The notes beneath the pieces were generated by a model. That model made no database searches. It had not been told where the DNA came from and was given only the letters and a program-made list of their open reading frames with translations. The position numbers and the translations under genes were made by a program. Positions 80-48,898 of a stretch of 64,000 nucleotides of DNA are shown here, piece after piece; the stretch's first letter is position 1; each line of letters begins with the position of its first letter. Source of the DNA: an uncultured Alphaproteobacteria bacterium (lineage in GTDB: Bacteria > Pseudomonadota > Alphaproteobacteria > Rs-D84); NCBI GenBank assembly GCA_944389185.1, contig CALXLL010000002.1, positions 19,004-83,003 of the forward strand, in the 5' to 3' direction.

Positions 80-1369
80 TTACTTTTTTATATTTTTGTA
101 TGCTTTATAAGCTCCTTGTATTTTATTTATTAGCGTTTTTGTATCTTTTGTGGTTTTGTTATAGATATTGTCCATATCTGAACCTACGTAAGCGTTAAGC
201 TGTTCTTTTGTTTTTTCAAAAATCTTGAACATCAGGTAAAAAGTAAGAATTGACGATAACCATAATAAAGAATGTTGCCCAAAACCCAAAGCGGTATTTG
301 CTATTTGCGGAACGTTAGTTGTGGCTGTGCCACCGGCAGAAACTACGAATATAGAGCTGTTCCAATTAAACAAAGATTTTACAATTGCTATATTAACGCA
401 CAGTATAAAAGCGCAAGCTATCATAGTAATAACAAGTTGTTGCAGTGCTTTTGTAATTCCGGCAAAGGCGGGCCAAATATCGAACCATTTTTCTTGGCTT
501 CGCGGTTTTATAACCCATGTTAAGACTTGAAATGGATATAAAATTAACGCCATACCGAAATTAAAAATACCTTGAATTATTAAAAGGGCCATAAATACAT
601 TACTTGATACAAAAGTTGCAATTAATAAGATACCAGTTAAAACGTTTAAAAAGTTTTCCCCGCCATGCGGTATCAACGTCATCATACCGCGTAAACCGCT
701 ATTTAAAAACTCAAAGCCTTTTTTAATGATTTGATTATTTGCATTTGATAAGTCAGATATAGGTTGTATTAAAAACTCGCAACTGGACTTGGATAACCAA
801 CCTTGTTCTATTATTGCGGGCGGGCAAGACATATCAGGTGGATTAATACCTGTTTGTTGGATAGAAGATGTGATACCTTCGGTATATAAAGCGCCAAATT
901 GTAAAAATGGATTTATTAAAAACTCGGTTAAATAAACGGGTTTGATTTGTAAAAGAATCGTCGCAGCTATAATCGCACGAATGATAGGGTTTAATAAGTT
1001 TTTACCTATATCCATTGGATTGACGGCGCCTTTGTAAAAATCACCGCCACCGGAAAAACCAAATAAAGAAAGCCAATCAGAAGGGAAATACATTTTCAAC
1101 AGATATAAAGAAATAGAAAGAATAAGAAAAGCCCAAACCAAAACGTATATAATACCTGTTCCTTTTCCGACAAAGAAATCGTAACTGCCGGTTGCAACTG
1201 CCATAAAAGCGTCAAGTATCATAGGAACAAAAGGAGATAAGTTTAAACCGTCAATTAAATCCGTTGCCGCAGCGAATGAGGTGCCTGGGCATAAAATTAA
1301 GTATAACAAAAATGCATAATAAGTTATGCGAGAAAACCATGAAAAAAACTTATGATTTATAAAAATCAT
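80..1369 (-). CDS. polytopic membrane protein with signal peptide; VirB6/TrbL-like T4SS channel-subunit candidate
   Basis: 429-aa ORF. It has a signal-like N-terminus (..LILCPGTSFA/AATD), at least 6 hydrophobic spans, a Cys-containing loop and a Lys-rich tail (..AYKAYKNIKK). Architecture and length match the divergent neighbour. The CDS is near certain; the family assignment is inference from architecture only. Confidence 0.45.
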   Translation of the reverse strand: MIFINHKFFSWFSRITYYAFLLYLILCPGTSFAAATDLIDGLNLSPFVPMILDAFMAVATGSYDFFVGKGTGIIYVLVWAFLILSISLYLLKMYFPSDWLSLFGFSGGGDFYKGAVNPMDIGKNLLNPIIRAIIAATILLQIKPVYLTEFLINPFLQFGALYTEGITSSIQQTGINPPDMSCPPAIIEQGWLSKSSCEFLIQPISDLSNANNQIIKKGFEFLNSGLRGMMTLIPHGGENFLNVLTGILLIATFVSSNVFMALLIIQGIFNFGMALILYPFQVLTWVIKPRSQEKWFDIWPAFAGITKALQQLVITMIACAFILCVNIAIVKSLFNWNSSIFVVSAGGTATTNVPQIANTALGFGQHSLLWLSSILTFYLMFKIFEKTKEQLNAYVGSDMDNIYNKTTKDTKTLINKIQGAYKAYKNIKK

Positions 1370-1437
1370 TCTCTCTTTTGTTAATTATTATTTATAATTA
1401 TATCATAATTCTTATAAAATATGATATACTTAAAACG

Positions 1438-2724
1438 ATGAATTGGTTAAAAAAGTTTTTTATTGTTTTTTTATCTTTCTTGCCTTTAAGTGCAAGTGCA
1501 TTGGCGCCTTTTTTGATTGGTACTGCAATAGGAGTTGCCGGAATTGCTGGTTTTTCAATATATAGAAGTATGGCACCTGTTAACTTAAATGATGCTTTTA
1601 ATTTTTTTTCTTCGTGTTGGTCTTGTCAGCTTTTTTCAGATATTATGTCTGCGATGTCAAGTTTGCTACCAAAAGCTTATAACGCGATAAGCGAAGTTAT
1701 AATCCCTTTTGCGATTATTTTAAGCGTTGTATGGTTCGCATGGACATTATTTTCTGGATATATAAACGCGAAAGTAGAAGAACCTTGGGGTATTACAAGT
1801 AAGTTTACAACGCATCTTATAAAACTTTCGTTTATATCTGCATTGTTATTATTGCCTTTACCAAGAATGCTGAACGACGTTGTGATAGAGCCGATTTTTA
1901 ATGTCGGTTTATATTTGAATAGAGCTTTCGTAACCGATGATAGCTTTGCTAATTGCGTTGTCGCAACTGCCATAGCAGATCCGGTATCAATCAGTGATAC
2001 GGCAGCATCGTCTGGTGCCTTTTCACCAAGATTGCGTCATAATTTGGCTTGTGAATTATCAAATATTCATCAAATTACAGCTTTGGGAATGACGGTTGGA
2101 TGGACTATGTTAAATATGTCTTTTAACGATGAATATATGTATAAGATTTTATGGGATATTCCAATTTTTCCTAATGTATTCGTCTTTTTTGCGGGCGTTC
2201 TGATATTGGGGTTATTTATATATGCTTTATTACCTATACCGCTTTATTTTCTAGAAATATTCATAACGCTGTCTTTGGACTTAATAATGTTGCCGTTTAT
2301 GTTATTAAGCTGGTTGTTTAAGGGATGGGCTATTTTTCCAAATGGCGGTAAAACGATTCAAGGTATGATAAACGACGTAATAAAAGGCACCGTAGGTATT
2401 GCGTTAACTGGTGTATTTTTGATTTTAGCGGTAATGTTTTTAAATGCGATATTTACAGATTGGAATGGGGTAAACTTTTTGCAGCAAGCTTTTGAAAATA
2501 ACGATTCCAGCATACTAATGGACGGTTTAATGCTTCGCAATGACAGTATAGTAACGATTCTTATGATGGGGGTATTTATAGCGATGTTTATGACTATGAT
2601 ACCGTCCTTGGTAAAGACTATATTTAACGTAGAGATTTCCCAGCGTTTTTATGAAAAGGCCAAAAAAGATCTTAATACATTGTGGTCTGGGGCGCAGAAA
2701 TGGTATAAATCTTTAAAAAAATAA
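1438..2724 (+). CDS. paralogous polytopic membrane protein; VirB6/TrbL-like candidate
   Basis: The ORF track starts at 1378, but the ATG at 1438 gives MNWLKKFF.. with signal peptide ..LPLSASA/LAP and a 428-aa product. It has multiple TM spans, a CWSC motif and the same Lys-rich tail type (..KWYKSLKK) as the 80-1369 product. Confidence 0.45.
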   Translation: MNWLKKFFIVFLSFLPLSASALAPFLIGTAIGVAGIAGFSIYRSMAPVNLNDAFNFFSSCWSCQLFSDIMSAMSSLLPKAYNAISEVIIPFAIILSVVWFAWTLFSGYINAKVEEPWGITSKFTTHLIKLSFISALLLLPLPRMLNDVVIEPIFNVGLYLNRAFVTDDSFANCVVATAIADPVSISDTAASSGAFSPRLRHNLACELSNIHQITALGMTVGWTMLNMSFNDEYMYKILWDIPIFPNVFVFFAGVLILGLFIYALLPIPLYFLEIFITLSLDLIMLPFMLLSWLFKGWAIFPNGGKTIQGMINDVIKGTVGIALTGVFLILAVMFLNAIFTDWNGVNFLQQAFENNDSSILMDGLMLRNDSIVTILMMGVFIAMFMTMIPSLVKTIFNVEISQRFYEKAKKDLNTLWSGAQKWYKSLKK

Positions 2725-2792: not shown

Positions 2793-3308
2793 ATGAAACA
2801 GTTTCCGATTCTTTATTGGCCACGCAAGACGACGAATGATACGGATTATCATTTGGCGCGTAAGGTTATAAACTCTGTGACTGGGGTTATGCCCGACGTG
2901 TTAACGGGGCAGCTTGATATAATGGATATATTAAACACCAATCCCGAAGCGACCGTTTATTATCCTGTTTTCTGTGAGTCTACTGGTTGGTGGGGTGAAT
3001 TATTAGGTGGCAGCGCAATTGTTACAGATAAGATAATAATATCCCCTGAATGTCAGCTTATGGCAATAGAAGCAGACGGGGCATCATTGGGGGATAATAA
3101 AGGGCAACATCAGCTGCTGGCAGCGGAAATATATCCAACCAGCGGCTTTTTTAAGAAAATGAATTCTGGGGTGGCGACGGTTGCAGATATGCTGGCTACG
3201 GATACAGGAACTATACTTGCTTTATTTTCAGGCAAAAATAAGAATCAATTTATAAATATTTTAGAATCTACCGGTAATTCTTATCTTGGTTGCATAGGCA
3301 GGTATTAA
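2793..3308 (+). CDS. hypothetical protein (171 aa, no signal peptide or TM seen)
   Basis: Clean ORF downstream of the membrane-protein pair. I recognise no motif. Confidence 0.5.
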   Translation: MKQFPILYWPRKTTNDTDYHLARKVINSVTGVMPDVLTGQLDIMDILNTNPEATVYYPVFCESTGWWGELLGGSAIVTDKIIISPECQLMAIEADGASLGDNKGQHQLLAAEIYPTSGFFKKMNSGVATVADMLATDTGTILALFSGKNKNQFINILESTGNSYLGCIGRY

Positions 3309-10295: not shown

Positions 10296-11654
10296 ATGCG
10301 ACATATTACAGCTTCAATAATATCGCTTTTGGTTATATTACCGGCGTATGCGGACGCGCGTTTGCCGGTTGTTAATATTGCTGCCGGTGGCGTTTCTGCC
10401 AGGGCAGCCTTTGGGGAAGAAACCGCTGTTAAGACGGATGAAAAAAAAGCTGTAAAAAATAATTCTAATAATAATTCAACAAGACGCGTTGTATCAAGAG
10501 TCGCGACAAGTCCCGTAAAAAGAACTGATACTTCTATTCCTTCTTTTGATACAGGACAGCAAATATTTGCAAGTTCTGACGTTTTAAGTCCGCGCAGACC
10601 AAGCTCTGATTTGTGGGCGCGATCTGGTTCTGATGATATGGTTGAAGCGCCTTTGCGTTTACCAGAACCGCAAGAGTTTTCTGTTTTTCGCTCGGACGAA
10701 TTATTACCGGAAGAAAGTATTGATAAAAACTCTGTTGCTAGCAAGGTAGTTGCAAGAAACTCGCAATTAAATGATGCAACCGTTTCTAAACGTCCTGTTG
10801 TTCAGGCAGAACCTATGAGTCAGCTTGATGCAGAAATAGCAAGATTGACAGAATTGCAAAGACGTGCAGAAGCAAGCGTTTCTGATGAAGTATTTAAGGC
10901 AAATGCTGTTATTGCCCAAGCCGCAACAGAAAGTAAAGCTGCTGAATCGGTAAATGTAAAACAAGACAGAATTGCTAAAGTTCGTTCTGGTATGGACGAT
11001 GAAATAAGTTTAAGTAGAATGATAGTTCCTGTAGAAGATGATGTTATAGTTAGATCTGTGGAAAAAGCAAAATCGCCACAGGTTGTATCTGTTAGAAATG
11101 ATATGTCCAGTATGTCGCCAACGGAATTAAGAAAAGCGTTTAGAAAAACATTTTTGTCCGAGAACAAGCATTTGTCTACTTATCAAATAGATGACAGGTT
11201 TGACGTTGCCAGTGATATGGGTTCTTCTATGGAAGGTTTTACTGCGCGACGCGATTTGTCTGAAACAGGTGGTATCAGACCATTGGAAATCAAGATAAAG
11301 TTCCGTAATGACGATGCGGCTTTGTCGCGTGATAATTATAATTTGCTGGCGGAATATGCTGGTATTGTTTTAAGCAATCCAACGCGTGCAGTTCAAATAT
11401 CTATTCCGGAAAACGCTACAAGAAATTCGGACGACAGAAAGTTAGCAGCAAAAAGGTTGGCAATTGTAGAGCAGGTATTACGTGATGCGGGGATTTCTGA
11501 ATATCGTATTATGCCTGTTTTATCTCAGCGAGAAGAGGAAGGACTGGTTCTTAGAATGATTTCCAGTGACCAGTATGAAACATTAACTCAGCAAAAACGC
11601 GATATGTTTGGCGATTCTGTCAGCAAGAAAACTTACAAAAGTATGAGCTGGTAG
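10296..11654 (+). CDS. secreted protein with degenerate C-terminal OmpA/MotB-like domain
   Basis: Signal peptide (..LPAYADA/RLP) and a long low-complexity middle region. The C-terminus (IKFRNDDAALSRDNYNLLAEYAGIVLSNP...KLAAKRLAIVEQVLRDAGI) follows the OmpA_C pattern but lacks canonical residues. Confidence 0.45.
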   Translation: MRHITASIISLLVILPAYADARLPVVNIAAGGVSARAAFGEETAVKTDEKKAVKNNSNNNSTRRVVSRVATSPVKRTDTSIPSFDTGQQIFASSDVLSPRRPSSDLWARSGSDDMVEAPLRLPEPQEFSVFRSDELLPEESIDKNSVASKVVARNSQLNDATVSKRPVVQAEPMSQLDAEIARLTELQRRAEASVSDEVFKANAVIAQAATESKAAESVNVKQDRIAKVRSGMDDEISLSRMIVPVEDDVIVRSVEKAKSPQVVSVRNDMSSMSPTELRKAFRKTFLSENKHLSTYQIDDRFDVASDMGSSMEGFTARRDLSETGGIRPLEIKIKFRNDDAALSRDNYNLLAEYAGIVLSNPTRAVQISIPENATRNSDDRKLAAKRLAIVEQVLRDAGISEYRIMPVLSQREEEGLVLRMISSDQYETLTQQKRDMFGDSVSKKTYKSMSW

Positions 11655-17790: not shown

Positions 17791-17816
17791 AAAAAACGCC
17801 CAATGGGCGTTTTTTA
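17790..17816. terminator. bidirectional rho-independent terminator
   Basis: AAAAAAAACGCCCAATGGGCGTTTTTT lies between convergent genes. Confidence 0.8.
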
Positions 17817-18404
17817 ACGAGACAATTCGTTTAATTTTTTCTTATGCATATTTATAAACTTTTCATGCATTTTTCGTTGCATAAGTTTATAATTTTCTTG
17901 TGCACGTTGTTTTGTAGAAGTTTGCAATATTTTTGCACGATTTGCACTATCTTGCTTTAATTGGTTGATATAGTTTTCTTGATTCTGCATATTTTGTGTT
18001 GCAATTTCCAAAGTTTTATCATTAGAAATATATTCGTTCATCAAGCTGTCTTTTACTTTTGCAAACTCTTCGTTCATCTGGTTTAGTTTATTTTGGGCAT
18101 CTGTGTATTTTTCAGAGTTTGCTTTTTGCATATTTTTTTCTATATCATACATTTGATTTCTTTTTTCTTGCAGTAAATCACTGTATTCGGCAAAGTCTGC
18201 CGCTTCTTTAACAGATTTTTCTTGCTGTAAAGCAAATTGATCTTGTAAATAAGCTAAATATATACGTGCATTTTCTAATTCCTTGGACTTGTCTTGCGGC
18301 ACGTTTGCATTAGCGACCGAATAAAACGCAATAAGGTATAATACAGTGCCCAAGCCTGCACCTGTTAATACTGTATATAAAGATTTTTTTATGTTTTTAT
18401 TCAT
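17814..18404 (-). CDS. membrane-anchored coiled-coil protein (hypothetical)
   Basis: N-terminal TM (LYTVLTGAGLGTVLYLIAFY), then about 150 aa of Q/E/K-rich heptad-like sequence. Confidence 0.55.
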   Translation of the reverse strand: MNKNIKKSLYTVLTGAGLGTVLYLIAFYSVANANVPQDKSKELENARIYLAYLQDQFALQQEKSVKEAADFAEYSDLLQEKRNQMYDIEKNMQKANSEKYTDAQNKLNQMNEEFAKVKDSLMNEYISNDKTLEIATQNMQNQENYINQLKQDSANRAKILQTSTKQRAQENYKLMQRKMHEKFINMHKKKLNELSR

Positions 18405-36405: not shown

Positions 36406-36443
36406 GACGGCGGGATTTCTATTGACCGCCGTTGTGTTTTTTT
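36406..36443 (+). terminator. rho-independent terminator after pyk
   Basis: ACGGCGG...CCGCCGT stem followed by TGTGTTTTTTT. It overlaps the track's TTG start at 36432, which argues for a later start of the next gene. Confidence 0.7.
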
Positions 36444-36458
36444 ACTATGATTTATATT

Positions 36459-37637
36459 ATGATGAAAAGAAGGTTAGGGATTTTTTTCTTGTGCTTTTTT
36501 TGGTCTTTTTCCGCAATGTCGGCTCAGTATCGCGCGGCGTTGGTTGCTGATATGGATACGGGTCAAGTTTTGTATCAAGAAAACGCAAAAGTTCAAAATT
36601 ATCCGGCAAGCTTAACGAAAATAATGACGTTATATTTAACGTTCGATGCATTGGAACATGGGCGTCTTAGTCTGGATGATTATTTAATTGTTTCTCAAAG
36701 CGCAGCTTCGGCTTCTCCTGTGAAATTAGGCTTGAAGGCAGGAAGTAAAATAAAAGTAGAAGATGCAATTAAGGCTTTAACGGTTTTAAGCGCTAATGAT
36801 GTCGCAAGAGTTTTAGCCGAAAACTTAAAAGGTGGTAAAGAGGGTAATTTTGCTTCTTTGATGACGCAAGTTGCGGGTGAAATAGGTTTGTCTCAAACTA
36901 ATTTTGAAAACTCGTCTGGGCTTCCTAATGACGACCATTTATCTACGGCACGTGATATTGCCTTGTTATCTATGGCGGTTTATAAGCACTTTCCGCAGTA
37001 TTGGAAATATTTCGGGATAAAGACTTGGACTTATAACGGCAAGACCTATACAAACGGCAATAGACTATTAGGGACTTATGAAGGTTGTGATGGTATGAAG
37101 ACTGGTTTTACGAATAAGTCAAAATATTCTTTGGTGGCGACGGCTAAAAGAAACGGTAAGCATTTAATATCGGTTGTTTTAGGGGCGGAAAATAAAGACG
37201 TTCGTGCTAATGTATCTGTAAAGCTTTTGAATAAGGGTTTTGAAATGGTCGCAAATGGCAGTGCACCGATTGTGAAACAAACTGCGGTTAGTTCTGTTAA
37301 TTCTTATAGTGCGCCAAAACAGACGACGGGTGGTGCAAATACTTTTTCCTCTGCGTATAATACGGCCACTGGAAATGTTGCAAAATCTTACAACGGTCAA
37401 AGTTCTGATGCGATAAGGTCTGGTAATGCCGGTGTTCAGTTTGGGGCTTTTTCTTCCAAATCTTATGCGCAAAATCAGGTAAATAATGTAAAAAATAAGA
37501 TAGGGGTAAATACCGTGATAGAAACGGCTCCGAACGGTATGTATCGTGTCAGAGCGAATGGTTTATCTGAAAGCTTGGCGCAAAATGTAAAAAATCGTGC
37601 TTTGGATGCAGGTATAGATTGTTATATATTTCACTAA
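36459..37637 (+). CDS. D-alanyl-D-alanine carboxypeptidase (PBP5/6 class) with C-terminal SPOR domain
   Basis: Signal peptide MMKRRLGIFFLCFFWSFSAMSA. Motifs SLTK (SxxK), SAND (SxN) and KTGFT (KTG). The C-terminus GVQFGAFSSKSYAQNQ...MYRVRANGLSESLAQNVKNRALDAGIDCYIF is SPOR-like. Confidence 0.85.
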   Translation: MMKRRLGIFFLCFFWSFSAMSAQYRAALVADMDTGQVLYQENAKVQNYPASLTKIMTLYLTFDALEHGRLSLDDYLIVSQSAASASPVKLGLKAGSKIKVEDAIKALTVLSANDVARVLAENLKGGKEGNFASLMTQVAGEIGLSQTNFENSSGLPNDDHLSTARDIALLSMAVYKHFPQYWKYFGIKTWTYNGKTYTNGNRLLGTYEGCDGMKTGFTNKSKYSLVATAKRNGKHLISVVLGAENKDVRANVSVKLLNKGFEMVANGSAPIVKQTAVSSVNSYSAPKQTTGGANTFSSAYNTATGNVAKSYNGQSSDAIRSGNAGVQFGAFSSKSYAQNQVNNVKNKIGVNTVIETAPNGMYRVRANGLSESLAQNVKNRALDAGIDCYIFH

Positions 37638-43059: not shown

Positions 43060-43083
43060 AAACGCCCGAAAGGGCGTTTTTAT
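43058..43083. terminator. bidirectional terminator after yidC
   Basis: AAAAACGCCCGAAAGGGCGTTTTTA. Confidence 0.8.
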
Positions 43084-43415
43084 AAGAACAATTTATATAA
43101 ACTGTCGGGTGTTTGAATAAAAACTTTTTTCATACCTATAACTTGCTTGGTAAATTGAACGCAAGTAAAAGGATGTTTTGGTTTATATTTTTTTATGTTC
43201 CCCAGATACACGAAACGCCAACCAAAAGATTCAAGGACAGATAAATCGCGTTGTGATAAATTAATAGGTATAATTTTTTTTGTTGTTATAAATTGTAATA
43301 ATATAAACCCTTTGTTTTTATTAAAAATTATCGGTGCGCAATGTTTGAAATGTCTGCAAAACAACCTGGGCATTAGTTTAGATGTTCTGGTTGAAAAAGC
43401 TATAATTATAATCAT
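43080..43415 (-). CDS. small hypothetical protein (111 aa); weak permuted NlpC/P60/LRAT-like His...Cys pattern
   Basis: AGGAAA RBS 7 nt upstream of the ATG. ..FCRHFKHCAPIIF.. (His residues) precedes ..FTCVQFTKQVIG.. (an NCEHF-like Cys motif). The family call is speculative. Confidence 0.35.
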   Translation of the reverse strand: MIIIIAFSTRTSKLMPRLFCRHFKHCAPIIFNKNKGFILLQFITTKKIIPINLSQRDLSVLESFGWRFVYLGNIKKYKPKHPFTCVQFTKQVIGMKKVFIQTPDSLYKLFL

Positions 43416-43433: not shown

Positions 43434-43784
43434 TTATTCTATCCAATCTTTTTCTTTAGCGGCTTTGTATAAGGTTGTCATAGCCGATTTCCAAAGGCTT
43501 GCTGCTTTATTTTCGGTCCAAATATATTGATGTGGTGCACGTCTTTTATCGCCGAAAAGCTTCATTGTTTCTAATTGTTCATCGGAAAGTTGACCGGATA
43601 AATAAAGTTTTGTTATAAGAGTTTCAACATCTAAAAGTTCGCAAGGTCGTTTTGTCGTATGTGTTTTTTGATATATGAAGTTTTTCTGCACTGATTTTGA
43701 ATATACAAACCAAAACCAAAGCTGTTCAGCGTTTTGAAATTTTTCTATATTTGATATATTTAATTGAGTGTTGTTTGCTTTCAT
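43434..43784 (-). CDS. small hypothetical protein (116 aa)
   Basis: Strong RBS (AAGGAGG, 6 nt, ATG). No TM. ..AEQLWFWFVYSK...LSDEQLETMKLFGDKRRAP.. has no confident family. Confidence 0.5.
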   Translation of the reverse strand: MKANNTQLNISNIEKFQNAEQLWFWFVYSKSVQKNFIYQKTHTTKRPCELLDVETLITKLYLSGQLSDEQLETMKLFGDKRRAPHQYIWTENKAASLWKSAMTTLYKAAKEKDWIE

Positions 43785-43954: not shown

Positions 43955-43983
43955 AATAAAAACGCACTGCGACAGCAGTGCGT
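43955..43983 (-). terminator. second minus-strand rho-independent terminator downstream of the virB10-like gene
   Basis: ACGCACTGC-TGTC-GCAGTGCGT followed by TTTTTATT on the minus strand. Confidence 0.6.
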
Positions 43984-44042
43984 TAAAACGATTTTATTTT
44001 ATATTAATATATGTATTCAATCCTTTTTTTTCAATGGTTATC

Positions 44043-44066
44043 ATAAAAAAACTGCCAAAAGGCAGT
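44043..44066 (-). terminator. rho-independent terminator of the virB8-9-10-like operon
   Basis: ACTGCC-TTTT-GGCAGT followed by TTTTTTTATGA on the minus strand, 9 nt after the stop codon. Confidence 0.75.
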
Positions 44067-44074
44067 TTAATTTT

Positions 44075-46528
44075 TTAAAGAATAGGCGGGAAGCAATCGC
44101 CACCTGTTTCTGGGCAACAGTTAAAACCTTGTTCGCCCATATCTGTATATATTTCACCTGGACAGCAGCCATATTCATCTGGTAAAGCCCCGTCTTCGCA
44201 AGTTATAACAGGCGCAGCTTCTTCTGTAACAGTTTCTGTTGTTTGTGTGAAGGGATTCAATATAGCACCTGAATCATCATAGGTAAGTCCAAGAATATCT
44301 TCGTTATAAGATTGTAATCCGGTTGATGTAGACGTATCATAATTTGTTTGGAATTGTTGCTGTTGATTTTGATAATAAGCATCTTGACGAGCATTATTTA
44401 TTGCTTCATATTGACTAGATTGGCAATAGAACAAAACCGTTCTATAATCAAGCCCTGCTTCACGAATAGCTTCTTCAACAGTCATTCCATTAACAGATGT
44501 TTTTAATTTTGTATCTGTAGATAAATCACAGAATTGTTCAAGATTAAATGAACGAACTTGTCCGGTCCAAGAACCGTCCGCATAATTAGGAACTGCTTGA
44601 TTCGCCCAATTATCATTTCTTTTATTTCTCATAGAAGCAATACTATCTGCTTGTGCTTGGCTTATAGAACATTTTTTACCGTTTCCTACGCCACAGGTCA
44701 CGACCAGGTCTGTCGGAGAATATACAGTAATACGCGTTCCTGCTGCAATAGAAAACGGTGGAACTGTATTATCCATCATATCTACAATTAATTTTTGCGC
44801 CACCTGATTCCAGGCATTTATTATTTCATTTTTAGCTAATTCAGAAGATCTTATAGTACCACTTTGCACAACTGTATTATTGTCCAAATCAATTTGATTT
44901 ACGAAAGTATCGGCAACAGGCGCAATCATATTAACTGCTGCCGGAACAATAGCGGTAAGCATAGGCATAACGAATTGTTCAAGATAGTCTGTGCTGCCAC
45001 GGCCTGGAACGCCTATACGACCTTGCGAGTCTGCAGAAAATGGATCTGAACCAGAGTTAAAATTAAACTCAACTCCATTTGGTAAAATAAACTGATACCA
45101 ATTTATTTCCATACGACCAATAGAACTATAAGGCCCCGGTAAAGTTCCCGTTAAATATCCTAACATTAATGTCCCAGCTGGTATAATAACCGTTCTGCCG
45201 TTATCTGCATATACGTTTCTATCAACGGTTGCACGAACCGGCATACTTTTTTCTCCTTGTTTATAAACAGATGGATCCGCACGAACTTCGGATACTATGG
45301 TTGCAGGAATTGGTTTATATTGACGTAAGACGAAAGTTCTGTCATATGGATCAGAAGAATATGTTGCATTACCACTGGTCCCGACAATTTCTTCCCCTTG
45401 CGTTTCTTGCGTTATCACTGCAAACCCGCCACCTGCCGAGCTTGTTGCCGTATCTGGCGTAGCATTTGTTATTCCAAGTTCTGCATCAGTTAATTGTCTT
45501 GCTTTATTTACATTTGCTTGACTTTTAGGATTGGAAAGTTGCGGTATAGTGCCATTTGTTATCGTCGTATAACCGATATGTTCGGCATCTGTTCCTATTT
45601 TTTTTCCGCTGTCGTTTATATCTGTAATAATCCCATTATCTGGATTGTAAACACCTGTTGGATTGTTGCAATCTTTATCGGAAAAAGGATGAAAATAATA
45701 AGCACCAGCTTCTGGTCTTATCCAGCCTATCTGTGTGCCAGAAGAATTATAACCAGGAAAAGCAAAATCTGAACAAGATATTGCCGGCGTTTTTTCTTCC
45801 TCTTCTTCCGTATAACCTTCTATATATACAGGTTGCGGTGTGAACTGTCTTTCCAGTGGGTCTGGTAAAGCGATAGATGCAATTTCTTCCTTAAAAGATT
45901 CTTTTACGGGTTCTTCCTTTATTACTACTTCTTCTTTCTCTTCTATAACTGGTTCTGTCTTATTTTCTACCTTTTGTTCTATTTTTTGTTCTGTCTGTTT
46001 TTCTTCCGTATTATTTTCTTCATCTGCAACGGCTCCCAATACAATAACTATTTTATTAGTTTTTTTCATCTTTTCAGGTTCGTCCACTCCGCGCCAATCT
46101 ATATATAAGGCAACAGGTTCTGTTGTGAATGGCTTCGTCGGGTTATAATCTAAAACAATTTTACATGCAGTTTTGTCATCTATAAAAGCCATTTGCGTGC
46201 AAGAGTTTAACGGTGTAGGAAAACCGTTAACTTCTTTTGTAATTCTTATGGCCATAATTTTAACCGGTGCAGAAGCATAAACTTTTACAGTTTGATTTCT
46301 GTTTTCGCCGACTTTTGTTTCTGCCCAGTTTACGGATTCGGGGCTCATAATAAGTTTTAACGGAACGTCTGAAGAAGATATTTCTGATACATCTGAATCT
46401 TCTTTATTTGTAAGCAATAGCGTCAACAATATGATTACAAGAACAAAAGCTGCAATTAGCAATAACCATTGAACTGCTTTCGGTGTTGACTTTCTTAATT
46501 CAGAAAACTGCTGTTTAATTTTATTCAT
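44075..46528 (-). CDS. virB10: VirB10/TrbI-family T4SS core protein with extra N-terminal beta-sandwich-like module, acidic linker and Cys-rich C-terminal extension
   Basis: 817 aa. TM at res 21-40. VirB10/TrbI core at about res 398-611 (..VRATVDRNVYADNGRTVIIPAGTLMLGYLTG...GRMEINWYQFILPNGVEFNF...ADSQGRIGVPGRG...PPFSIAAGTRITVYSPTDLVV). An E/K-rich linker at res 168-246 replaces the usual Pro-rich region. The tail at res 612-817 contains 10 Cys. Confidence 0.75.
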   Translation of the reverse strand: MNKIKQQFSELRKSTPKAVQWLLLIAAFVLVIILLTLLLTNKEDSDVSEISSSDVPLKLIMSPESVNWAETKVGENRNQTVKVYASAPVKIMAIRITKEVNGFPTPLNSCTQMAFIDDKTACKIVLDYNPTKPFTTEPVALYIDWRGVDEPEKMKKTNKIVIVLGAVADEENNTEEKQTEQKIEQKVENKTEPVIEEKEEVVIKEEPVKESFKEEIASIALPDPLERQFTPQPVYIEGYTEEEEEKTPAISCSDFAFPGYNSSGTQIGWIRPEAGAYYFHPFSDKDCNNPTGVYNPDNGIITDINDSGKKIGTDAEHIGYTTITNGTIPQLSNPKSQANVNKARQLTDAELGITNATPDTATSSAGGGFAVITQETQGEEIVGTSGNATYSSDPYDRTFVLRQYKPIPATIVSEVRADPSVYKQGEKSMPVRATVDRNVYADNGRTVIIPAGTLMLGYLTGTLPGPYSSIGRMEINWYQFILPNGVEFNFNSGSDPFSADSQGRIGVPGRGSTDYLEQFVMPMLTAIVPAAVNMIAPVADTFVNQIDLDNNTVVQSGTIRSSELAKNEIINAWNQVAQKLIVDMMDNTVPPFSIAAGTRITVYSPTDLVVTCGVGNGKKCSISQAQADSIASMRNKRNDNWANQAVPNYADGSWTGQVRSFNLEQFCDLSTDTKLKTSVNGMTVEEAIREAGLDYRTVLFYCQSSQYEAINNARQDAYYQNQQQQFQTNYDTSTSTGLQSYNEDILGLTYDDSGAILNPFTQTTETVTEEAAPVITCEDGALPDEYGCCPGEIYTDMGEQGFNCCPETGGDCFPPIL

Positions 46529-46553
46529 ATTTTACTTCATACAATTCGTTTAA

Positions 46554-48092
46554 TTACTGAATTCTTACAACGCTGCAAGATATTCCTTGGGATTTTGTCA
46601 GTTTATCGCACAAAGTTTGTGCCGTATCAATATCTGCCATAGGACCAATACGTAGGCGATACAATCTTGCTGTTGAAGAATCTGCACCCAAATCACCGAC
46701 GCCTTGTTCGTCAACGGCAAAGAATACCATATCTTTATAAGGTGTCAGTAATCCTTGACCGTCTTCACCGCTGAACATAGCAAGTAAGCTTGCCCAGTAA
46801 TCATCCAAAGCTTTTACAGAAGTATCCGCTTTTAATTCAACCGCAACGCCGTTTTGGTTGCTTGTGATAAGCGGTATATTTGATTGTGGCAAGTATGAAC
46901 CTGCGGTTAAACGTTCTGTTGGTATCATCGATAAACCAGAGCTTGAACCACCGCCATAGTTTCCATACATCTGAACAGAATAACCCGCCGGCATATAGGT
47001 TCCGGCACCACCAGCATTAACATTATTCCCTACAAACATTGGTGTTGTTGTATAATTTGATACGCCTGAATTAATTGCCGCCATATCGGATGTATAAGCG
47101 ATATTATTTAGCGATTGACCGGATAAAATGCTTTGGGCGACATTTGCTTCTGCCAATGCCATAACACTGGCCGTATCGGCAATTAAGAACGGTTTTTCAC
47201 GTTTCTTTATGCAGACAATTCTTTGACCGCTGCGCAGCACCATATCACCCACGGCTTCCACAATAAGTAATCTGCTGTCTTCGCCGTCTGTCCTGAAGCT
47301 GACAGGTGATTCACCACCTTCAACCAACAACGATACTACAGGGCGTTGCGTCATAGAAATAACTTTGTCACCGAAATCAATATAAGTAAATATCTGATCG
47401 CGCCATACGCGTTCAGGTGCAATCACGTAATCATCAGGATTTGGAACAAATATATCCAGGTCAAACCTAAACTCTGAAGGGTCAATCTTCATAGATTTTA
47501 TCCAACCATAGTCTTCACCGTCTACACCCACGGTATTTGATGTTGATGAAGCTTTTTTAAATATCGAAGAAGCGCCACTTCCCATAGTCGTATTTCCCGA
47601 TGCATTCGGCAAAGTAGAATTACCATCCAAAGTAATATCAACCTGAGAATAAGTAATTTCACTGGAATTAGAAGGTTCACTTCTTAAATAGAATATATAT
47701 TGATTACCAGACTTACCAGTCACGATAAGGTTAGTATCAGAACCTTGATTACTGGCCAGCGGTGAAATTAACATATTATTGCTGCCTTGTGTTGCGTCAA
47801 TTTTGAAAAGGTTTTCGTTTCCTATAACTGCTTCTGCAATTTGTTCGCCGTTTGGTAAAGTTACCAAAGTAACCATACCGTTACGAAGCTTAATTGGTAA
47901 AACGCTGCCTGGTGACCAGGTTAGTTGAGCATACCCAGGTTTGACACTTCCGCTTGCCATATTTGCATTTGGATTATCCCAAGCGCTTTGCACACCATAG
48001 TTGTATCCGGCAGAATAAGCTTCTGATAACGCAAGCACGCTTAGTAAGCAAAACATGGATACATTTATTTTAATAGCCTTTGATATACTCAT
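46554..48092 (-). CDS. virB9: VirB9/TrbG-family T4SS outer-membrane core protein fused to a C-terminal SPOR domain
   Basis: ATG at 48092 with a GGAAGGA RBS; the track TTG lies at 48098. Signal peptide ..LALSEAYSA. VirB9 N-domain (..MVTLVTLPNGEQIAEAVIGNENLFKID...NMLISPL...TNLIVTGKSGNQYIFYL) and C-domain (..APERVWRDQIFTYIDFGD...RPVVSLLVEGGESPVSFRTDGE..LIVEAVGDMVLRSGQRIVCI). A G/S/N-rich linker precedes the SPOR-like end ..ARLYRLRIGPMADIDTAQTLCDKLTKSQGISCSVVRI. Confidence 0.75.
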   Translation of the reverse strand: MSISKAIKINVSMFCLLSVLALSEAYSAGYNYGVQSAWDNPNANMASGSVKPGYAQLTWSPGSVLPIKLRNGMVTLVTLPNGEQIAEAVIGNENLFKIDATQGSNNMLISPLASNQGSDTNLIVTGKSGNQYIFYLRSEPSNSSEITYSQVDITLDGNSTLPNASGNTTMGSGASSIFKKASSTSNTVGVDGEDYGWIKSMKIDPSEFRFDLDIFVPNPDDYVIAPERVWRDQIFTYIDFGDKVISMTQRPVVSLLVEGGESPVSFRTDGEDSRLLIVEAVGDMVLRSGQRIVCIKKREKPFLIADTASVMALAEANVAQSILSGQSLNNIAYTSDMAAINSGVSNYTTTPMFVGNNVNAGGAGTYMPAGYSVQMYGNYGGGSSSGLSMIPTERLTAGSYLPQSNIPLITSNQNGVAVELKADTSVKALDDYWASLLAMFSGEDGQGLLTPYKDMVFFAVDEQGVGDLGADSSTARLYRLRIGPMADIDTAQTLCDKLTKSQGISCSVVRIQ

Positions 48093-48111
48093 ACCCAATC
48101 CTTCCGTTCTT

Positions 48112-48780
48112 TTAATTCAAATAACCTGTATCAAGCGGATCACCGTTTCCTGAATCAACTTCATATTCAACCACACGAAGCCCCAGTGGGTTTTTCATAC
48201 GGTCTGACCACTTAACGTCTTTTTGGTCATCCATTGCCAACTTTACAATGATTGTATAATCTTTTTTACCTGTCTGTCCATCACTATTTGCACAAAAATA
48301 ACTAAAATTAACATAATAAGTATCGTCCGTTCTTGGGGTAATTGCACCGGGTTGAAATTCTACTGGGCAGAAAAATTCAAAATCCGGTGTATTAGTCATC
48401 AAAGCATTCCACATATTAGTTTCTGTAAAACTGCCGTAAACTTCGGGTGAAGACCAAGCATGAACAATTCCTTCGTCGTCATTATTCCATTTTTTTATCA
48501 TGACTTTTTGATTTGTGACGATTTCATTTCTTGCTTTGATGTATTCGCGGATAAAACTTCTTTTATATATTTCCAGATTTTCATCTTGCGGTGGCATATC
48601 TACAACTGTGACTTCAAGGTTATCAGCAGGTTGGGTGACTAAAAAGAAGATTTGAGGCCTTTCCAAAGGGTATATTTTATATAGCGTATAAAGCAAAACG
48701 CCAACAGCAACAACCATTGCAGCAAACACGAAAGTCAAAAGTCTTGATATTAAAGTTGGCGGTTCTATGCGGGTTTGCAC
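48112..48780 (-). CDS. virB8: VirB8-family T4SS inner-membrane protein
   Basis: Short cytoplasmic N-terminus and a single TM (LLTFVFAAMVVAVGVLLYTLY). The periplasmic domain ends in the VirB8-type NPLGLRVVEYEV motif. GTG at 48780 is preceded by AAGGGAGA; the track's TTG at 48840 would place a promoter-like element inside the CDS. Confidence 0.7.
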   Translation of the reverse strand: MQTRIEPPTLISRLLTFVFAAMVVAVGVLLYTLYKIYPLERPQIFFLVTQPADNLEVTVVDMPPQDENLEIYKRSFIREYIKARNEIVTNQKVMIKKWNNDDEGIVHAWSSPEVYGSFTETNMWNALMTNTPDFEFFCPVEFQPGAITPRTDDTYYVNFSYFCANSDGQTGKKDYTIIVKLAMDDQKDVKWSDRMKNPLGLRVVEYEVDSGNGDPLDTGYLN

Positions 48781-48806
48781 GTGCTTTTCTCCCTTCTTAC
48801 AGAAAG

Positions 48807-48836
48807 ATTGTAGAAAAAAAGTGCATATCTGTGCAA
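48807..48836 (-). promoter_or_regulatory. candidate sigma70 promoter for the virB8-9-10-like operon
   Basis: Minus strand: TTGCAC (48836-48831), N18, TACAAT (48812-48807), about 27 nt upstream of GTG 48780. Confidence 0.35.
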
Positions 48837-48898
48837 GCAAAAAGTTAATAAATTAAAATCAAAACGATAAAAATATGGTTGTATTTATTAAAAAGTTC

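What the first reader, a model, noticed from the sequence alone, without database searches (positions are those of the whole stretch)
44075..48840. Self-contained virB8-virB9-virB10-like operon with no ATPase, pilin or coupling-protein genes, possibly a ComB-like or repurposed T4SS core
Three tightly spaced minus-strand genes, with gaps of about 13-19 and 25 nt, encode three T4SS core components. These are a VirB8-like protein (single TM, C-terminal NPLGLRVVEY motif), a VirB9-like protein and a VirB10/TrbI-like protein. A promoter-like TTGCAC-N18-TACAAT precedes the first gene and an intrinsic terminator directly follows the last. In Agrobacterium-type virB operons and in Rickettsiales rvh loci, virB8-9-10 is followed immediately by virB11 and virD4. 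Here the operon ends, and no VirB4, VirB11 or VirD4 ATPase, VirB2 pilin or relaxase occurs anywhere in the 64 kb. The module is inserted between two of the most conserved housekeeping blocks, lspA-yidC and tRNA-Trp-secE-nusG. The best-known T4SS with a B8-B9-B10 operon and no B11 or D4 is the Helicobacter/Campylobacter ComB DNA-uptake machine. This window also retains comEC and comF. An alphaproteobacterial ComB-like uptake system, or an outer-membrane core complex co-opted for another function, would both be new.
Basis: partly seen in the sequence, partly recalled or inferred. Interest (0 to 1): 0.8.

Follow-up and report, generated by a model that had tools for sequence, protein, structure and literature searches.

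The report
Orphan type IV secretion core operon
A gut bacterial lineage with tiny genomes (Candidatus Enterousia, order Rs-D84) keeps, as strictly as its housekeeping genes, only the envelope-spanning scaffold (VirB8, VirB9, VirB10) of an old plasmid-transfer machine, with no motor genes nearby, so it is either one island of a scattered secretion system or a secretion-system shell put to a new use.

Summary
Three adjacent minus-strand genes encode VirB8-, VirB9- and VirB10-like proteins, all above Pfam's cut-offs, followed by a strong terminator. They lie between yidC and tRNA-Trp-secE-nusG.

The host is Candidatus Enterousia (Rs-D84), an uncultured gut alphaproteobacterium with a genome of about 0.9 Mb. 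The module sits at the same site in all 80 related species genomes fetched. It is intact everywhere (B9 dN/dS 0.02-0.07, mostly below yidC).

Deeper relatives (24-45% identity) carry B9-B10, with B8 where visible, at other chromosomal sites. None has VirB11 or VirD4 after B10.

In trees, these stand-alone modules group beside complete conjugative T4SSs of Sphingomonadales and Microvirga plasmids. The ComB-type system sampled is only 21-28% identical, so a ComB origin is not supported.

B9 carries a SPOR peptidoglycan-binding tail. B10 keeps the outer-membrane antenna helices and has gained an Ig-like domain and a new Cys-rich knob.

No other T4SS gene occurs in 1.79 Mb of fetched DNA, but whole genomes could not be searched. 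"Self-contained" is therefore shown locally and remains untested genome-wide.

Verdict: an unreported, domesticated variant of a T4SS core.

The parts
48807..48835 (-). Promoter-like site (TGCACA-17-TACAAT) upstream of the VirB8-like gene
   Evidence: 9 of 12 matches. Weak, because 32 such sites were found in the region against 21.6 expected. Position is appropriate, about 30 nt upstream of the GTG start.
48112..48780 (-). VirB8-like gene (222 aa from GTG 48780; the mechanical ORF extends to TTG 48840). Short conserved cytoplasmic tail, one TM helix, NTF2-like periplasmic domain with NPLG motif.
   Evidence: Pfam PF04335 E 3.6e-12, 47 bits, cut-off 23.2. RBS and GTG start. TM at aa 7-37. Family profile hits solved TrwG/VirB8 structures at E 8e-6 to 1e-4. 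44-68% identity across 80 species, dN/dS 0.02-0.13.
46554..48092 (-). VirB9-like gene (512 aa from ATG 48092; ORF from TTG 48098). Sec signal peptide, VirB9 N- and C-terminal domains (aa ~58-299), a low-complexity linker, then a C-terminal SPOR domain.
   Evidence: Pfam CagX PF03524 E 8.8e-23 and TraK_N (weak). Signal peptide without a lipobox. 70-81% identity across 80 species, higher than YidC; dN/dS 0.02-0.07. Columns aa 200-320 are 96-100% identical among 120 homologs.
46557..46850 (-). SPOR (peptidoglycan-binding) domain at the C-terminus of VirB9 (aa ~415-512)
   Evidence: Pfam SPOR PF05036 E 1.8e-6, 28.6 bits, cut-off 21. The same domain is precomputed for many homologs. The AF2 model has a beta-alpha-beta-beta / beta-alpha-beta topology here at moderate pLDDT. 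Weak counterparts occur in second-tier relatives (L087, L106) and in the Erythrobacter conjugative VirB9 tail.
44075..46528 (-). VirB10-like gene (817 aa). Conserved 19-aa cytoplasmic tail, TM helix (aa 17-39), PapD/ASH-like Ig domain, disordered acidic/Pro-rich linker, second beta domain, TrbI barrel with two antenna helices, helical extension, Cys-rich knob.
   Evidence: Pfam TrbI PF03743 E 3.2e-17 (aa 401-608). AF2 model m60ccfb57a4b4. Foldseek hits to CagY, TrwE, Xanthomonas VirB10, TraF and ComB10 at E 5e-10 to 1e-5. 50-63% identity across 80 species, no internal stops.
46025..46363 (-). PapD/ASH-like beta-sandwich domain of VirB10 (aa 56-168), absent from canonical VirB10
   Evidence: pLDDT about 90. 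Foldseek hits to ASH/PapD-like domains of CEP192 and HYDIN. Pfam ASH E 5e-4, below cut-off, in second-tier relative L090. Invariant Cys110 and Cys122.
44699..45367 (-). VirB10 C-terminal barrel with antenna helices (aa 388-610; helices 515-535 and 561-587), the element that forms the outer-membrane pore in solved T4SS core complexes
   Evidence: Columns aa 500-600 are 92-98% identical among 120 homologs.
44078..44206 (-). C-terminal six-cysteine knob of VirB10 (aa ~775-817; GCCPGEIYTDMGEQGFNCCPETGGDCFPPIL). A module not in Pfam that also occurs, often in tandem, in small signal-peptide proteins of the same lineage.
   Evidence: P0192, P0201, P0208, P0234, P0241, P0256, P0269, P0273. pLDDT about 83. 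93% column identity. It is the only copy in the window.
44049..44068 (-). Intrinsic terminator directly after the VirB10 stop codon
   Evidence: 8-bp stem, T-run, z -3.96.
43961..43984 (-). Second, stronger terminator-like hairpin (10-bp stem), about 65 nt further downstream
43434..43784 (-). o116: conserved 116-aa cytoplasmic protein of unknown function. Always follows the module in Enterousia and is probably a separate transcription unit.
   Evidence: Strong RBS. 58-72% identity in 76 of the 80 species loci, dN/dS 0-0.14. 39 invariant positions. No Pfam, PHROG or PDB match. No homolog in second-tier or conjugative loci.
43080..43415 (-). o111: conserved 111-aa protein of unknown function downstream of o116
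   Evidence: 34-55% identity across species, dN/dS 0.06-0.23. No family match. Profile-profile comparison with the second-tier small exported protein is not significant.

Best explanation
The locus is a domesticated remnant of an alphaproteobacterial conjugative (MPF_T, VirB-type) type IV secretion system. It has been cut down to the envelope-spanning scaffold and fixed in the chromosome of the Rs-D84 / Candidatus Enterousia lineage.

Shown:
- The three proteins are true VirB8, VirB9 and VirB10 homologs.
- They form one clade with similar stand-alone modules in other uncultured bacteria. That clade groups with complete conjugative T4SSs of Sphingomonadales and Microvirga megaplasmids.
- The ancestral neighbours (relaxase, VirB2-B6 upstream; VirB11 and VirD4 downstream) are gone from the locus in every lineage examined.
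- The genes are intact and under purifying selection as strong as for housekeeping genes.

Inferred mechanism, by homology with solved pKM101, R388, Xanthomonas and Cag complexes:
- VirB10 is anchored in the inner membrane by its N-terminal helix. It reaches the outer membrane and lines an outer-membrane pore with its two conserved antenna helices.
- VirB9 forms the surrounding periplasmic and outer-membrane ring. Here it is pinned to peptidoglycan by its SPOR domain rather than to the outer membrane by a VirB7 lipoprotein.
- VirB8 forms the periplasmic collar above the inner membrane.
- The added Ig-like domain and the Cys knob on VirB10 provide lineage-specific contacts.

My best guess (about 0.5) is that this scaffold is still the channel of a translocation machine used by these metabolically dependent bacteria to exchange macromolecules with partner cells or the environment. 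In that case the motor, a VirB4-type ATPase, is encoded at another locus, as in the scattered rvh systems of Rickettsiales. It is not a conjugation module, because no relaxase or coupling protein is linked, and it is not a ComB-family member.
For: Domain assignments above Pfam cut-offs. VirB10 fold with antenna helices. VirB8 profile matches solved VirB8/TrwG structures.

Host identified as Ca. Enterousia and related gut MAGs, including a closed 958,618-bp genome. The same five-gene arrangement occurs at the same site in 80 species genomes. dN/dS: B9 0.02-0.07, B8 0.02-0.13, B10 0.03-0.36, against yidC 0.04-0.16; no internal stops.

Nearest annotated relatives are complete T4SS operons: MobA/MobL, VirB2, B3, B4, B5, B6, B8, B9, B10, B11, D4. 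Trees: stand-alone clade 100% (B9) and 98-100% (B10, most second-tier members); joint clade with the Sphingosinicella, Erythrobacter and Microvirga systems 100% in both.

Strong conservation of the short cytoplasmic tails and TM helices of B10 (91-96% column identity) and of B8 (invariant S12 and R13; near-invariant R4, P7, P8, L10) suggests a conserved inner-membrane or cytoplasmic partner.

From established knowledge: VirB4 is the only ubiquitous T4SS protein (PMC4027160), and rvh genes are scattered in reduced Rickettsiales genomes (PMC2653234). The lineage is inferred to be partner-dependent and poor in standard transporters (PMC12306168).
Against: No VirB2/3/4/5/6/7/11/D4 homolog (tblastn E <= 0.01, probes from the closest complete systems) in 1.79 Mb. 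That covers the 64-kb window, about +-10 kb in 80 further species genomes, and second-tier contigs.

In seven second-tier contexts at different chromosomal sites, B10 is never followed by B11 or D4, and the flanks are housekeeping genes.

The only genomic study of the order mentions no secretion system (PMC12306168).

Enterousia has no VirB7-like lipoprotein gene at the locus.

The accessory-domain gains point to a change of function.

No experiment of any kind exists for this lineage.
Confidence: 0.5

Rival explanations
1. ATPase-less, repurposed core complex. The genome has no VirB4, VirB11 or VirD4 at all. VirB8, VirB9-SPOR and VirB10 self-assemble into a peptidoglycan-anchored cage that spans both membranes. 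It works without a dedicated motor, as a large gated outer-membrane channel for import or export of macromolecules or metabolites, or as an envelope tether, in a bacterium with very few conventional transporters.
For: The local absence of every other T4SS gene is consistent across more than 80 genomes and seven deeper lineages at different chromosomal sites.

The retained block is the set that forms the outer-membrane core complex plus arches in solved structures (7o3j, 3jqo, 6gyb hits). From established knowledge, the pKM101 core complex self-assembles without ATPases.

B9-B10 occur without an adjacent B8 in L090.

New domains are present (ASH, second beta domain, Cys knob, SPOR).

The published genome survey reports no secretion system and few transporters (PMC12306168).
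Against: No T4SS-derived machine lacking VirB4 is known (PMC4027160).

VirB8 and the conserved cytoplasmic tails of B8 and B10 suggest an inner-membrane or cytoplasmic partner.

More than 90% of the genome is unseen.

A passive channel of this size would need gating, for which there is no evidence.
Confidence: 0.35
2. ComB-like DNA-uptake machine. The module brings DNA across the outer membrane into the periplasm and hands it to ComEC/ComF, as in Helicobacter and Campylobacter, supplying nucleotides to a bacterium that cannot make them.
For: comEC and a comF-like gene are in the window.

The best single-sequence PDB match of B10 is H. pylori ComB10 (E 2.6e-4). NCBIfam ComB10 scores 50.6 bits, almost as high as VirB10 at 58.7.

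The order lacks nucleotide biosynthesis, and type IV pili were reported only for another lineage in the same study (PMC12306168).

Like ComB, the operon lacks B11 and D4.
Against: In the trees the Helicobacter ComB-type plasmid system, used as root, is only 21-28% identical. The module groups instead with alphaproteobacterial conjugative systems.

The ComB10 equivalog cut-off is 300 bits and is not met.

ComB needs ComB4, ComB2/3 and ComB6, none of which is seen locally.

comEC and comF are 12-32 kb away and, to my knowledge, are widespread in Alphaproteobacteria irrespective of T4SS.

Any DNA-uptake role would be convergent, not family membership.
Confidence: 0.1
3. Non-functional relic of an integrated conjugative element that is decaying.
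For: Loss of the relaxase, VirB2-B6, VirB11 and VirD4 relative to the nearest complete systems. The module is oriented against almost all neighbouring genes.
Against: Intact in all 80 species genomes, with no internal stops and dN/dS of 0.02-0.13 for B8 and B9. B9 is more conserved than YidC. GC content is the same as the flanks. These genomes are under 1 Mb and have high coding density (PMC12306168).
Confidence: 0.02

Closest known systems
Complete conjugative VirB/D4-type (MPF_T) T4SS with MobA/MobL (MOBQ) relaxase on megaplasmids of Sphingosinicella sp. BN140058 (NZ_CP035502), Erythrobacter aureus (NZ_CP031358) and Microvirga sp. VF16 (NZ_CP069357)
   Same: Closest annotated relatives. VirB9 core is 31-40% identical (tblastn E up to 4e-46), and the VirB10 barrel is 26-31% identical. 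The B8-B9-B10 order is the same. VirB9 is unusually long (430-550 aa), and the Erythrobacter tail aligns weakly to the SPOR region. The joint clade has 100% bootstrap in both trees.
   Different: Those systems have all eleven genes in one operon, plus a relaxase, primase and topoisomerase, and sit on plasmids. Here only B8-B9-B10 remain, in the chromosome between housekeeping operons. VirB10 has about 400 extra residues (ASH domain, second beta domain, helical extension, Cys knob).
Outer-membrane core complex of minimized T4SSs (pKM101 TraN/O/F, R388 TrwH/F/E, Xanthomonas VirB7/9/10)
   Same: VirB10 barrel with a two-helix antenna, VirB9 N- and C-terminal domains, and VirB8 NTF2-like domain with NPXG motif. 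Foldseek E 5e-9 to 3e-6 against 7o3j, 8rt6, 6gyb and 3jqo.
   Different: No VirB7 lipoprotein gene at the Enterousia locus (a 57-aa lipoprotein is present in second-tier locus L087). VirB9 is fused to SPOR. The proteins fall far below the NCBIfam equivalog cut-offs (54 against 217.7 bits; 59 against 220 bits). No linked ATPases, VirB6, VirB5 or pilin.
Helicobacter/Campylobacter ComB DNA-uptake T4SS
   Same: An operon with B8-B9-B10 and no B11 or D4. The genome also has ComEC. ComB10 is the best single-sequence PDB hit.
   Different: Not phylogenetically related beyond the general T4SS level. The ComB10 equivalog cut-off is not met. ComB has ComB2, ComB3, ComB4 and ComB6, and comB6-7 precede comB8. 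None of these is seen here.
Rickettsiales vir homolog (rvh) T4SS
   Same: A chromosomal, vertically inherited T4SS in Alphaproteobacteria with genomes of about 1 Mb, with genes scattered over several islands (PMC2653234). Some Enterousia MAGs are labelled 'uncultured Rickettsiales'.
   Different: In rvh, virB8-virB9-virB10-virB11-virD4 stay contiguous and B8, B9 and B4 are duplicated. Here the operon stops after B10 and a single copy was seen. Sequence affinity to rvh could not be tested.
Peptidoglycan-anchored secretion-system outer-membrane complexes (e.g. Legionella Dot/Icm DotK with an OmpA-like domain) - recalled from general knowledge, not tested
   Same: A peptidoglycan-binding module built into a T4SS outer-membrane complex.
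   Different: There it is a separate OmpA-type lipoprotein. Here it is a SPOR domain fused to VirB9.

Membership tests
Type IV secretion system, VirB-type (MPF_T) core components | VirB8 domain (PF04335) with NPXG motif and N-terminal TM helix | tested here: met
   47 bits against cut-off 23.2. NPLG is invariant in the family. TM at aa 7-37. Profile hits to solved VirB8/TrwG structures.
Type IV secretion system, VirB-type (MPF_T) core components | VirB9 (PF03524) with signal peptide | tested here: met
   81.6 bits against cut-off 34.2. NCBI names homologs 'TrbG/VirB9 family'. Weak profile hit to TrwF.
Type IV secretion system, VirB-type (MPF_T) core components | VirB10 (PF03743) barrel with antenna helices and N-terminal TM anchor | tested here: met
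   63.4 bits against cut-off 35. AF2 helices at aa 515-535 and 561-587, TM at aa 17-39. Foldseek hits to CagY, TrwE, VirB10, TraF and ComB10.
Type IV secretion system, VirB-type (MPF_T) core components | NCBIfam equivalog scores for VirB9 (TIGR02781, 217.7 bits) and VirB10 (NF038091, 220 bits) | tested here: not met
   54.4 and 58.7 bits. These are divergent members, not equivalogs.
Type IV secretion system (any class) | A VirB4-family ATPase, the only ubiquitous T4SS protein (PMC4027160) | tested here: inconclusive
   None in the window, in about +-10 kb of 80 further species genomes, or in second-tier contigs. About 90% of each genome could not be searched with the tools.
Type IV secretion system, VirB-type | VirB7 lipoprotein encoded upstream of virB8 | tested here: not met
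   No lipobox ORF upstream of B8 in Enterousia (1 spurious match in 74 loci). A 57-aa LLSGC lipoprotein is present in second-tier locus L087.
Conjugative T4SS (mating-pair formation plus DNA transfer) | Linked relaxase and type IV coupling protein (VirD4) | tested here: not met
   Present in the nearest relatives. Absent here and in all related loci.
ComB DNA-uptake T4SS | ComB10 equivalog (NF038092, cut-off 300 bits) | tested here: not met
   50.6 bits.
ComB DNA-uptake T4SS | Phylogenetic grouping with epsilonproteobacterial ComB/Tfs-type B9 and B10 | tested here: not met
   The H. suis ComB-type plasmid system was used as the root and is only 21-28% identical. The module groups with alphaproteobacterial conjugative systems, 100% bootstrap. 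Only one ComB-type system was sampled.
ComB DNA-uptake T4SS | ComB2, ComB3, ComB4 and ComB6 partners | tested here: inconclusive
   Not in any fetched DNA. The rest of the genome is unseen.
Rickettsiales rvh T4SS | Contiguous virB8-virB9-virB10-virB11-virD4 | tested here: not met
   The operon terminates after B10. No B11 or D4 within 10 kb in any genome.
Rickettsiales rvh T4SS | B8, B9 and B10 nest within rvh clades | not testable with these tools
   No rvh B9 or B10 sequences were available. The only solved rvh protein, RvhB8-II (4O3V), is a divergent paralog lacking NPXG (PMC4676284). It was not hit by the B8 profile, which is not a fair test.
SPOR-domain proteins | SPOR domain (PF05036) above the gathering score | tested here: met
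   28.6 bits against cut-off 21, covering the C-terminal half of the profile. Compatible AF2 topology at moderate confidence. Binding to peptidoglycan was not tested.

The most novel reading that the evidence does not exclude
Rs-D84 genomes contain no VirB4, VirB11 or VirD4 at all. The VirB8 / VirB9-SPOR / extended-VirB10 module would then be the first T4SS-derived machine that works without its ATPases: a peptidoglycan-anchored, double-membrane-spanning channel or cage, domesticated from a conjugative plasmid. It would be kept as a core gene set by a whole order of partner-dependent gut bacteria and by related uncultured lineages, for example as their main large-solute or DNA gateway through the outer membrane.
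Probability: 0.35. Interest if true: 0.85.

Novelty: new variant of a known kind. Interest (0 to 1): 0.62.

Why it matters
Candidatus Enterousia and the rest of Rs-D84 are widespread in human and livestock guts. They have genomes under 1 Mb, no respiration, almost no biosynthesis and few recognizable transporters, and how they obtain what they need is unknown (PMC12306168).

A T4SS scaffold conserved as tightly as ribosomal-operon neighbours is the first concrete candidate for their interaction or uptake machinery.

For T4SS biology, this is a clean natural case of a conjugative system stripped down to B8-B9-B10. It shows new fusions (VirB9-SPOR; VirB10 with an Ig-like domain and a Cys knob) that persist across deep lineages.

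If a VirB4 exists elsewhere, this is a second, independent example of a scattered and domesticated T4SS in reduced Alphaproteobacteria, alongside rvh. If none exists, it overturns the rule that VirB4 is indispensable.

A single profile search on an already closed genome would settle the question.

Tried and rejected
1. Whole-genome check for VirB4, B11 and D4: not possible. I therefore did not spend the third protein search on it.

2. Literature. Searches for Enterousia, Rs-D84, stand-alone VirB8-10 and VirB9-SPOR found no description of this module. The 2023 Enterousia paper is not held, and PMC12306168 has no supplements held.

3. Single-sequence PDB searches for B8 and B9 found nothing. Profiles were needed.

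4. o116 and o111. There were no significant Pfam, PHROG or PDB hits, and no homologs in second-tier or conjugative loci. hhalign of o111 against the second-tier small exported protein gave probability 5%, so I rejected that link.

5. The 888-aa neighbour in L087 and the 450-aa and 412-aa neighbours in L090 were tested as possible hidden VirB4 or VirB6. None had a Pfam match.

6. Loci encoding other Cys-knob proteins were checked for T4SS genes and had none.

7. The B9 AF2 model had low confidence (pLDDT 48), because the alignment is too uniform. I did not use it for a fold search.

8. An Rfam scan found only the three tRNAs.

9. The rvh test through solved RvhB8-II was judged uninformative, because that paralog is atypical.

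Full report
**1. What is there**

Three minus-strand ORFs lie at 48112..48840, 46554..48098 and 44075..46528. Pfam assigns them to VirB8 (47 bits), CagX/VirB9 (81.6 bits) and TrbI/VirB10 (63.4 bits), each above its gathering score. NCBIfam equivalog models for VirB9, VirB10 and ComB10 are matched only weakly (54, 59 and 51 bits against cut-offs of 218, 220 and 300). These are therefore real but divergent family members.

The VirB8 gene most likely starts at the GTG at 48780, behind an AAGGGAG ribosome-binding site, which is how it is called on a sister contig. Intergenic gaps are 13-19 nt and 25 nt.

A hairpin plus T-run follows the VirB10 stop directly (44068..44049; -12 kcal/mol, z = -3.96). 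A second hairpin follows about 65 nt later.

The flanks are lspA-yidC on one side and tRNA-Trp-secE-nusG-rplK on the other. The rest of the window is housekeeping: cell-wall synthesis genes, gyrA, an RND efflux operon, comEC, a comF-like gene, pyrG, pyk, recR, rpoB and rpoC. No other T4SS gene is present.

**2.

VirB8 is bitopic and keeps the canonical NPLG (NPXG) motif (PMC4676284).

VirB9 has an ordinary signal peptide with no lipobox, then the VirB9 N- and C-terminal domains and a low-complexity linker. It ends in a C-terminal SPOR domain (28.6 bits, cut-off 21). SPOR was also precomputed for many homologs.

VirB10 is 817 aa, and only aa 401-608 match TrbI. An AlphaFold model built with 62 homologs (mean pLDDT 66) shows these parts:
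- a TM helix (aa 17-39);
- a confident beta-sandwich (aa 56-168, pLDDT about 90) that Foldseek matches to PapD/ASH-type Ig domains;
- a disordered acidic/Pro-rich linker;
- a second beta domain (aa 250-315);
- the VirB10 barrel with both antenna helices (aa 515-535 and 561-587), matching CagY, TrwE, Xanthomonas VirB10, TraF and ComB10;
- a helical extension;
- a six-cysteine knob (aa ~775-817).

The knob is not in Pfam. It recurs, often in tandem, in small signal-peptide proteins of the same lineage, which are encoded elsewhere without T4SS neighbours.

Two small ORFs, o116 and o111, follow the terminators. They have no recognizable family.

**3. Whose genome, and how conserved**

The exact VirB10 protein occurs on ENA gut-metagenome scaffolds. 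A scan of one genome per GTDB species returned 80 full-length relatives at 50-63% identity. All are gut MAGs named Candidatus Enterousia, uncultured Alphaproteobacteria or uncultured Rickettsiales, from humans, chickens, ruminants and rabbits. One is a closed 958,618-bp chromosome.

The one genomic study of the order (Rs-D84) describes genomes under 1 Mb with no respiration, no flagella, little biosynthesis and few transporters. It infers a partner-dependent life and mentions no secretion system (PMC12306168).

In every one of the 80 loci the order B8-B9-B10 sits at the same site, followed by o116 and o111 in all but four of them. Identities are 70-81% for VirB9, against 56-66% for YidC (full-length matches) and mostly 60-75% for LspA. 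dN/dS is 0.02-0.07 for B9, 0.02-0.13 for B8 and 0.03-0.36 for B10, against 0.04-0.16 for yidC. There are no internal stops.

The most constrained parts are:
- the VirB9 C-terminal domain (96-100% identical columns);
- the VirB10 antenna and barrel (92-98%);
- the VirB10 cytoplasmic tail and TM helix (91-96%);
- the Cys knob (93%);
- the SPOR region (82-93%).

GC content equals that of the flanks. Only the GC skew flips, because the module is on the other strand. The locus is thus an old, vertically inherited core locus, not a recent insertion or a decaying element.

**4. Deeper relatives**

An exhaustive search of 1.84 billion cluster representatives found about 20 full-length clusters. It also found a second tier of 600-830-aa proteins at 24-40% identity. 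Seven of their contexts were read:
- L087/L088: mutS | 57-aa lipoprotein, B8, B9, B10, 137 aa, 121 aa | thrS.
- L090: ribosome hibernation factor (opposite strand) | B9, B10 | secF.
- L091: B9, B10, 119 aa | sodB.
- L089 and L104: (B9), B10, then DUF4402 genes.
- L105: B8, B9, B10 | lepA, tyrS, ybaB.
- L106: B9(SPOR), B10.

None has VirB11 or VirD4 after B10, and none has another T4SS gene in view. The accessory domains are shared: SPOR-like in L087 and L106, and ASH-like in L090 (all below Pfam's cut-offs).

The 57-aa ORF in L087 has a textbook lipobox (LLSGC) and is a VirB7 counterpart. Enterousia has none at the locus.

A small exported protein of about 120 aa recurs after B10 in three second-tier loci. 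It is not detectably related to o111.

**5. Origin**

A tblastn search of VirB9 against 72,556 plasmids gave its best hits on megaplasmids of Sphingosinicella (39%, E 4e-46), Erythrobacter (36%) and Microvirga (31%). All three carry complete operons: MobA/MobL relaxase, VirB2, B3, B4, B5, B6, small ORF, B8, B9, B10, B11, D4. More distant plasmid systems also keep their ATPases next to B8-B10.

I built neighbour-joining trees of the VirB9 core (265 columns) and the VirB10 barrel (212 columns), each with 100 bootstraps:
- Enterousia plus the second tier form a clade at 100% for B9. For B10 the support is 98-100% for all but the deepest second-tier branch, where the full clade gets only 44%.
- That clade groups with the Sphingosinicella, Erythrobacter and Microvirga systems at 100% in both trees.
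- The Helicobacter suis ComB-type plasmid system, used as the root, is only 21-28% identical.

The Erythrobacter VirB9 tail aligns weakly to the SPOR region (E 1e-4 for that single comparison). The fusion may therefore predate domestication.

Probes from these complete systems (VirB2, 3, 4, 5, 6, 7, 11 and D4) found nothing at E <= 0.01 in 1.79 Mb of fetched DNA, while B9 and B10 hit every locus.

**6. Interpretation**

Shown: a conjugative MPF_T-type T4SS was reduced to (B7)-B8-B9-B10 in an ancestor of these lineages. It was fixed in the chromosome, decorated with new domains and kept under housekeeping-level constraint.

Inferred by homology: the proteins build the T4SS core scaffold. VirB10 bridges the two membranes and lines the outer-membrane pore. 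VirB9 forms the ring, here tied to peptidoglycan by SPOR. VirB8 forms the collar.

Not shown: whether a VirB4-type motor exists elsewhere.
- In favour of a motor: no T4SS without VirB4 is known (PMC4027160). Reduced Rickettsiales scatter their rvh genes (PMC2653234). The cytoplasmic tails of B8 and B10 are conserved.
- Against a motor: local absence is consistent across many lineages and sites, B7 has been lost, new domains have been gained, and the published genome survey is silent on secretion systems.

I put the scattered-but-complete machine at about 0.5, an ATPase-less repurposed scaffold at about 0.35, a convergent ComB-like uptake role at about 0.1, and a dead relic at about 0.02.

**7. 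Comparison and novelty**

Membership in the VirB8, VirB9 and VirB10 protein families is met. Membership in a complete T4SS is undecided, because VirB4 is untested genome-wide. Membership in conjugative systems, ComB or rvh-type organisation is not met on the features that could be tested. Sequence nesting within rvh could not be tested.

I found no paper describing this module. NCBI merely labels some homologs "TrbG/VirB9 family".

I rate it a new variant of a known kind. One profile search of an existing closed genome decides between an interesting and a very surprising reading.

Noticed in passing
window 44078-44206 (-); also P0192, P0201, P0208, P0234, P0241, P0256, P0269, P0273; loci L094, L095, L096: A small six-cysteine module (consensus about C-x-PDxxGCCPGExYTDMGxxGFNCCPxxGGxCFPP) ends VirB10. 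It also occurs once to three times in small signal-peptide proteins, which share an N-terminal two-Cys helical segment. It is not in Pfam. One such gene lies downstream of a MacB/FtsX-type permease and an ABC ATPase.
   Followed up: partly
window 43434-43784 (-) and 43080-43415 (-): Two small ORFs (116 and 111 aa) are conserved behind the module in 76 of the 80 Enterousia species loci (o116 has 39 invariant residues and dN/dS 0-0.14). They match no known family and have no counterpart in second-tier or conjugative loci. They are probably a separate transcription unit behind two terminators.
   Followed up: partly
L087:10882-11247, L091:3029-3388, L106:2616-2882; also L087:10466-10879 and L104:3950-4306: In second-tier stand-alone modules, a signal-peptide protein of about 120 aa recurs immediately after VirB10 (pairwise E 1e-19 to 1e-22). 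A second small membrane-anchored protein is shared by L087 and L104 (E 1e-3). These are possible lineage-specific accessory subunits.
   Followed up: partly
L087:5543-5716: A 57-aa lipoprotein (MKYSFLALLAVVLLSGC...) lies directly upstream of VirB8 in a second-tier module, so it is a VirB7 counterpart. No equivalent ORF exists upstream of VirB8 in Enterousia.
   Followed up: partly
window 36432-37637 (+): A D-alanyl-D-alanine carboxypeptidase (Peptidase_S11) also carries a C-terminal SPOR domain. SPOR is therefore used more than once as a peptidoglycan-targeting module in this small genome.
   Followed up: no
L089:7628-9239 and L104:4340-5250: DUF4402 genes, and in L089 a 1050-aa protein with a faint SdrD_B match, lie next to the stand-alone VirB10 in two related second-tier contigs. 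This may be a surface-fibre cluster or a coincidence.
   Followed up: no
L106 (JGI 3300042606): One second-tier contig carrying VirB9(SPOR)-VirB10 has 62.5% GC, whereas all the others have 30-38%. The stand-alone module is therefore not confined to AT-rich reduced genomes.
   Followed up: no
window 80-1369 (-), 1378-2724 (+), 2793-3308 (+), 10296-11654 (+), 17814-18404 (-), 18675-20105 (+), 20116-20778 (-), 23268-23870 (+): Eight ORFs of 171-476 aa have no Pfam match at E <= 1e-5, a high share for a housekeeping region. 10296-11654 sits between murG and the comF-like gene. 23268-23870 sits between the TolC-like and AcrB-like genes, where a membrane-fusion protein is expected.
   Followed up: no
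window 44001-48000: GC skew turns negative (-0.07 to -0.09) only over the module, while it is +0.06 to +0.27 in the rest of the window. The module is one of the few gene blocks transcribed against the dominant direction. GC content is unchanged.
   Followed up: partly
L092, L093, L097 (Sphingosinicella, Erythrobacter and Microvirga plasmids): The nearest complete conjugative systems have unusually long VirB9 proteins (430-550 aa). The Erythrobacter tail aligns weakly to the SPOR region (E 1e-4). This may be an unannotated VirB9-SPOR fusion in a whole family of alphaproteobacterial conjugative T4SSs.
   Followed up: partly
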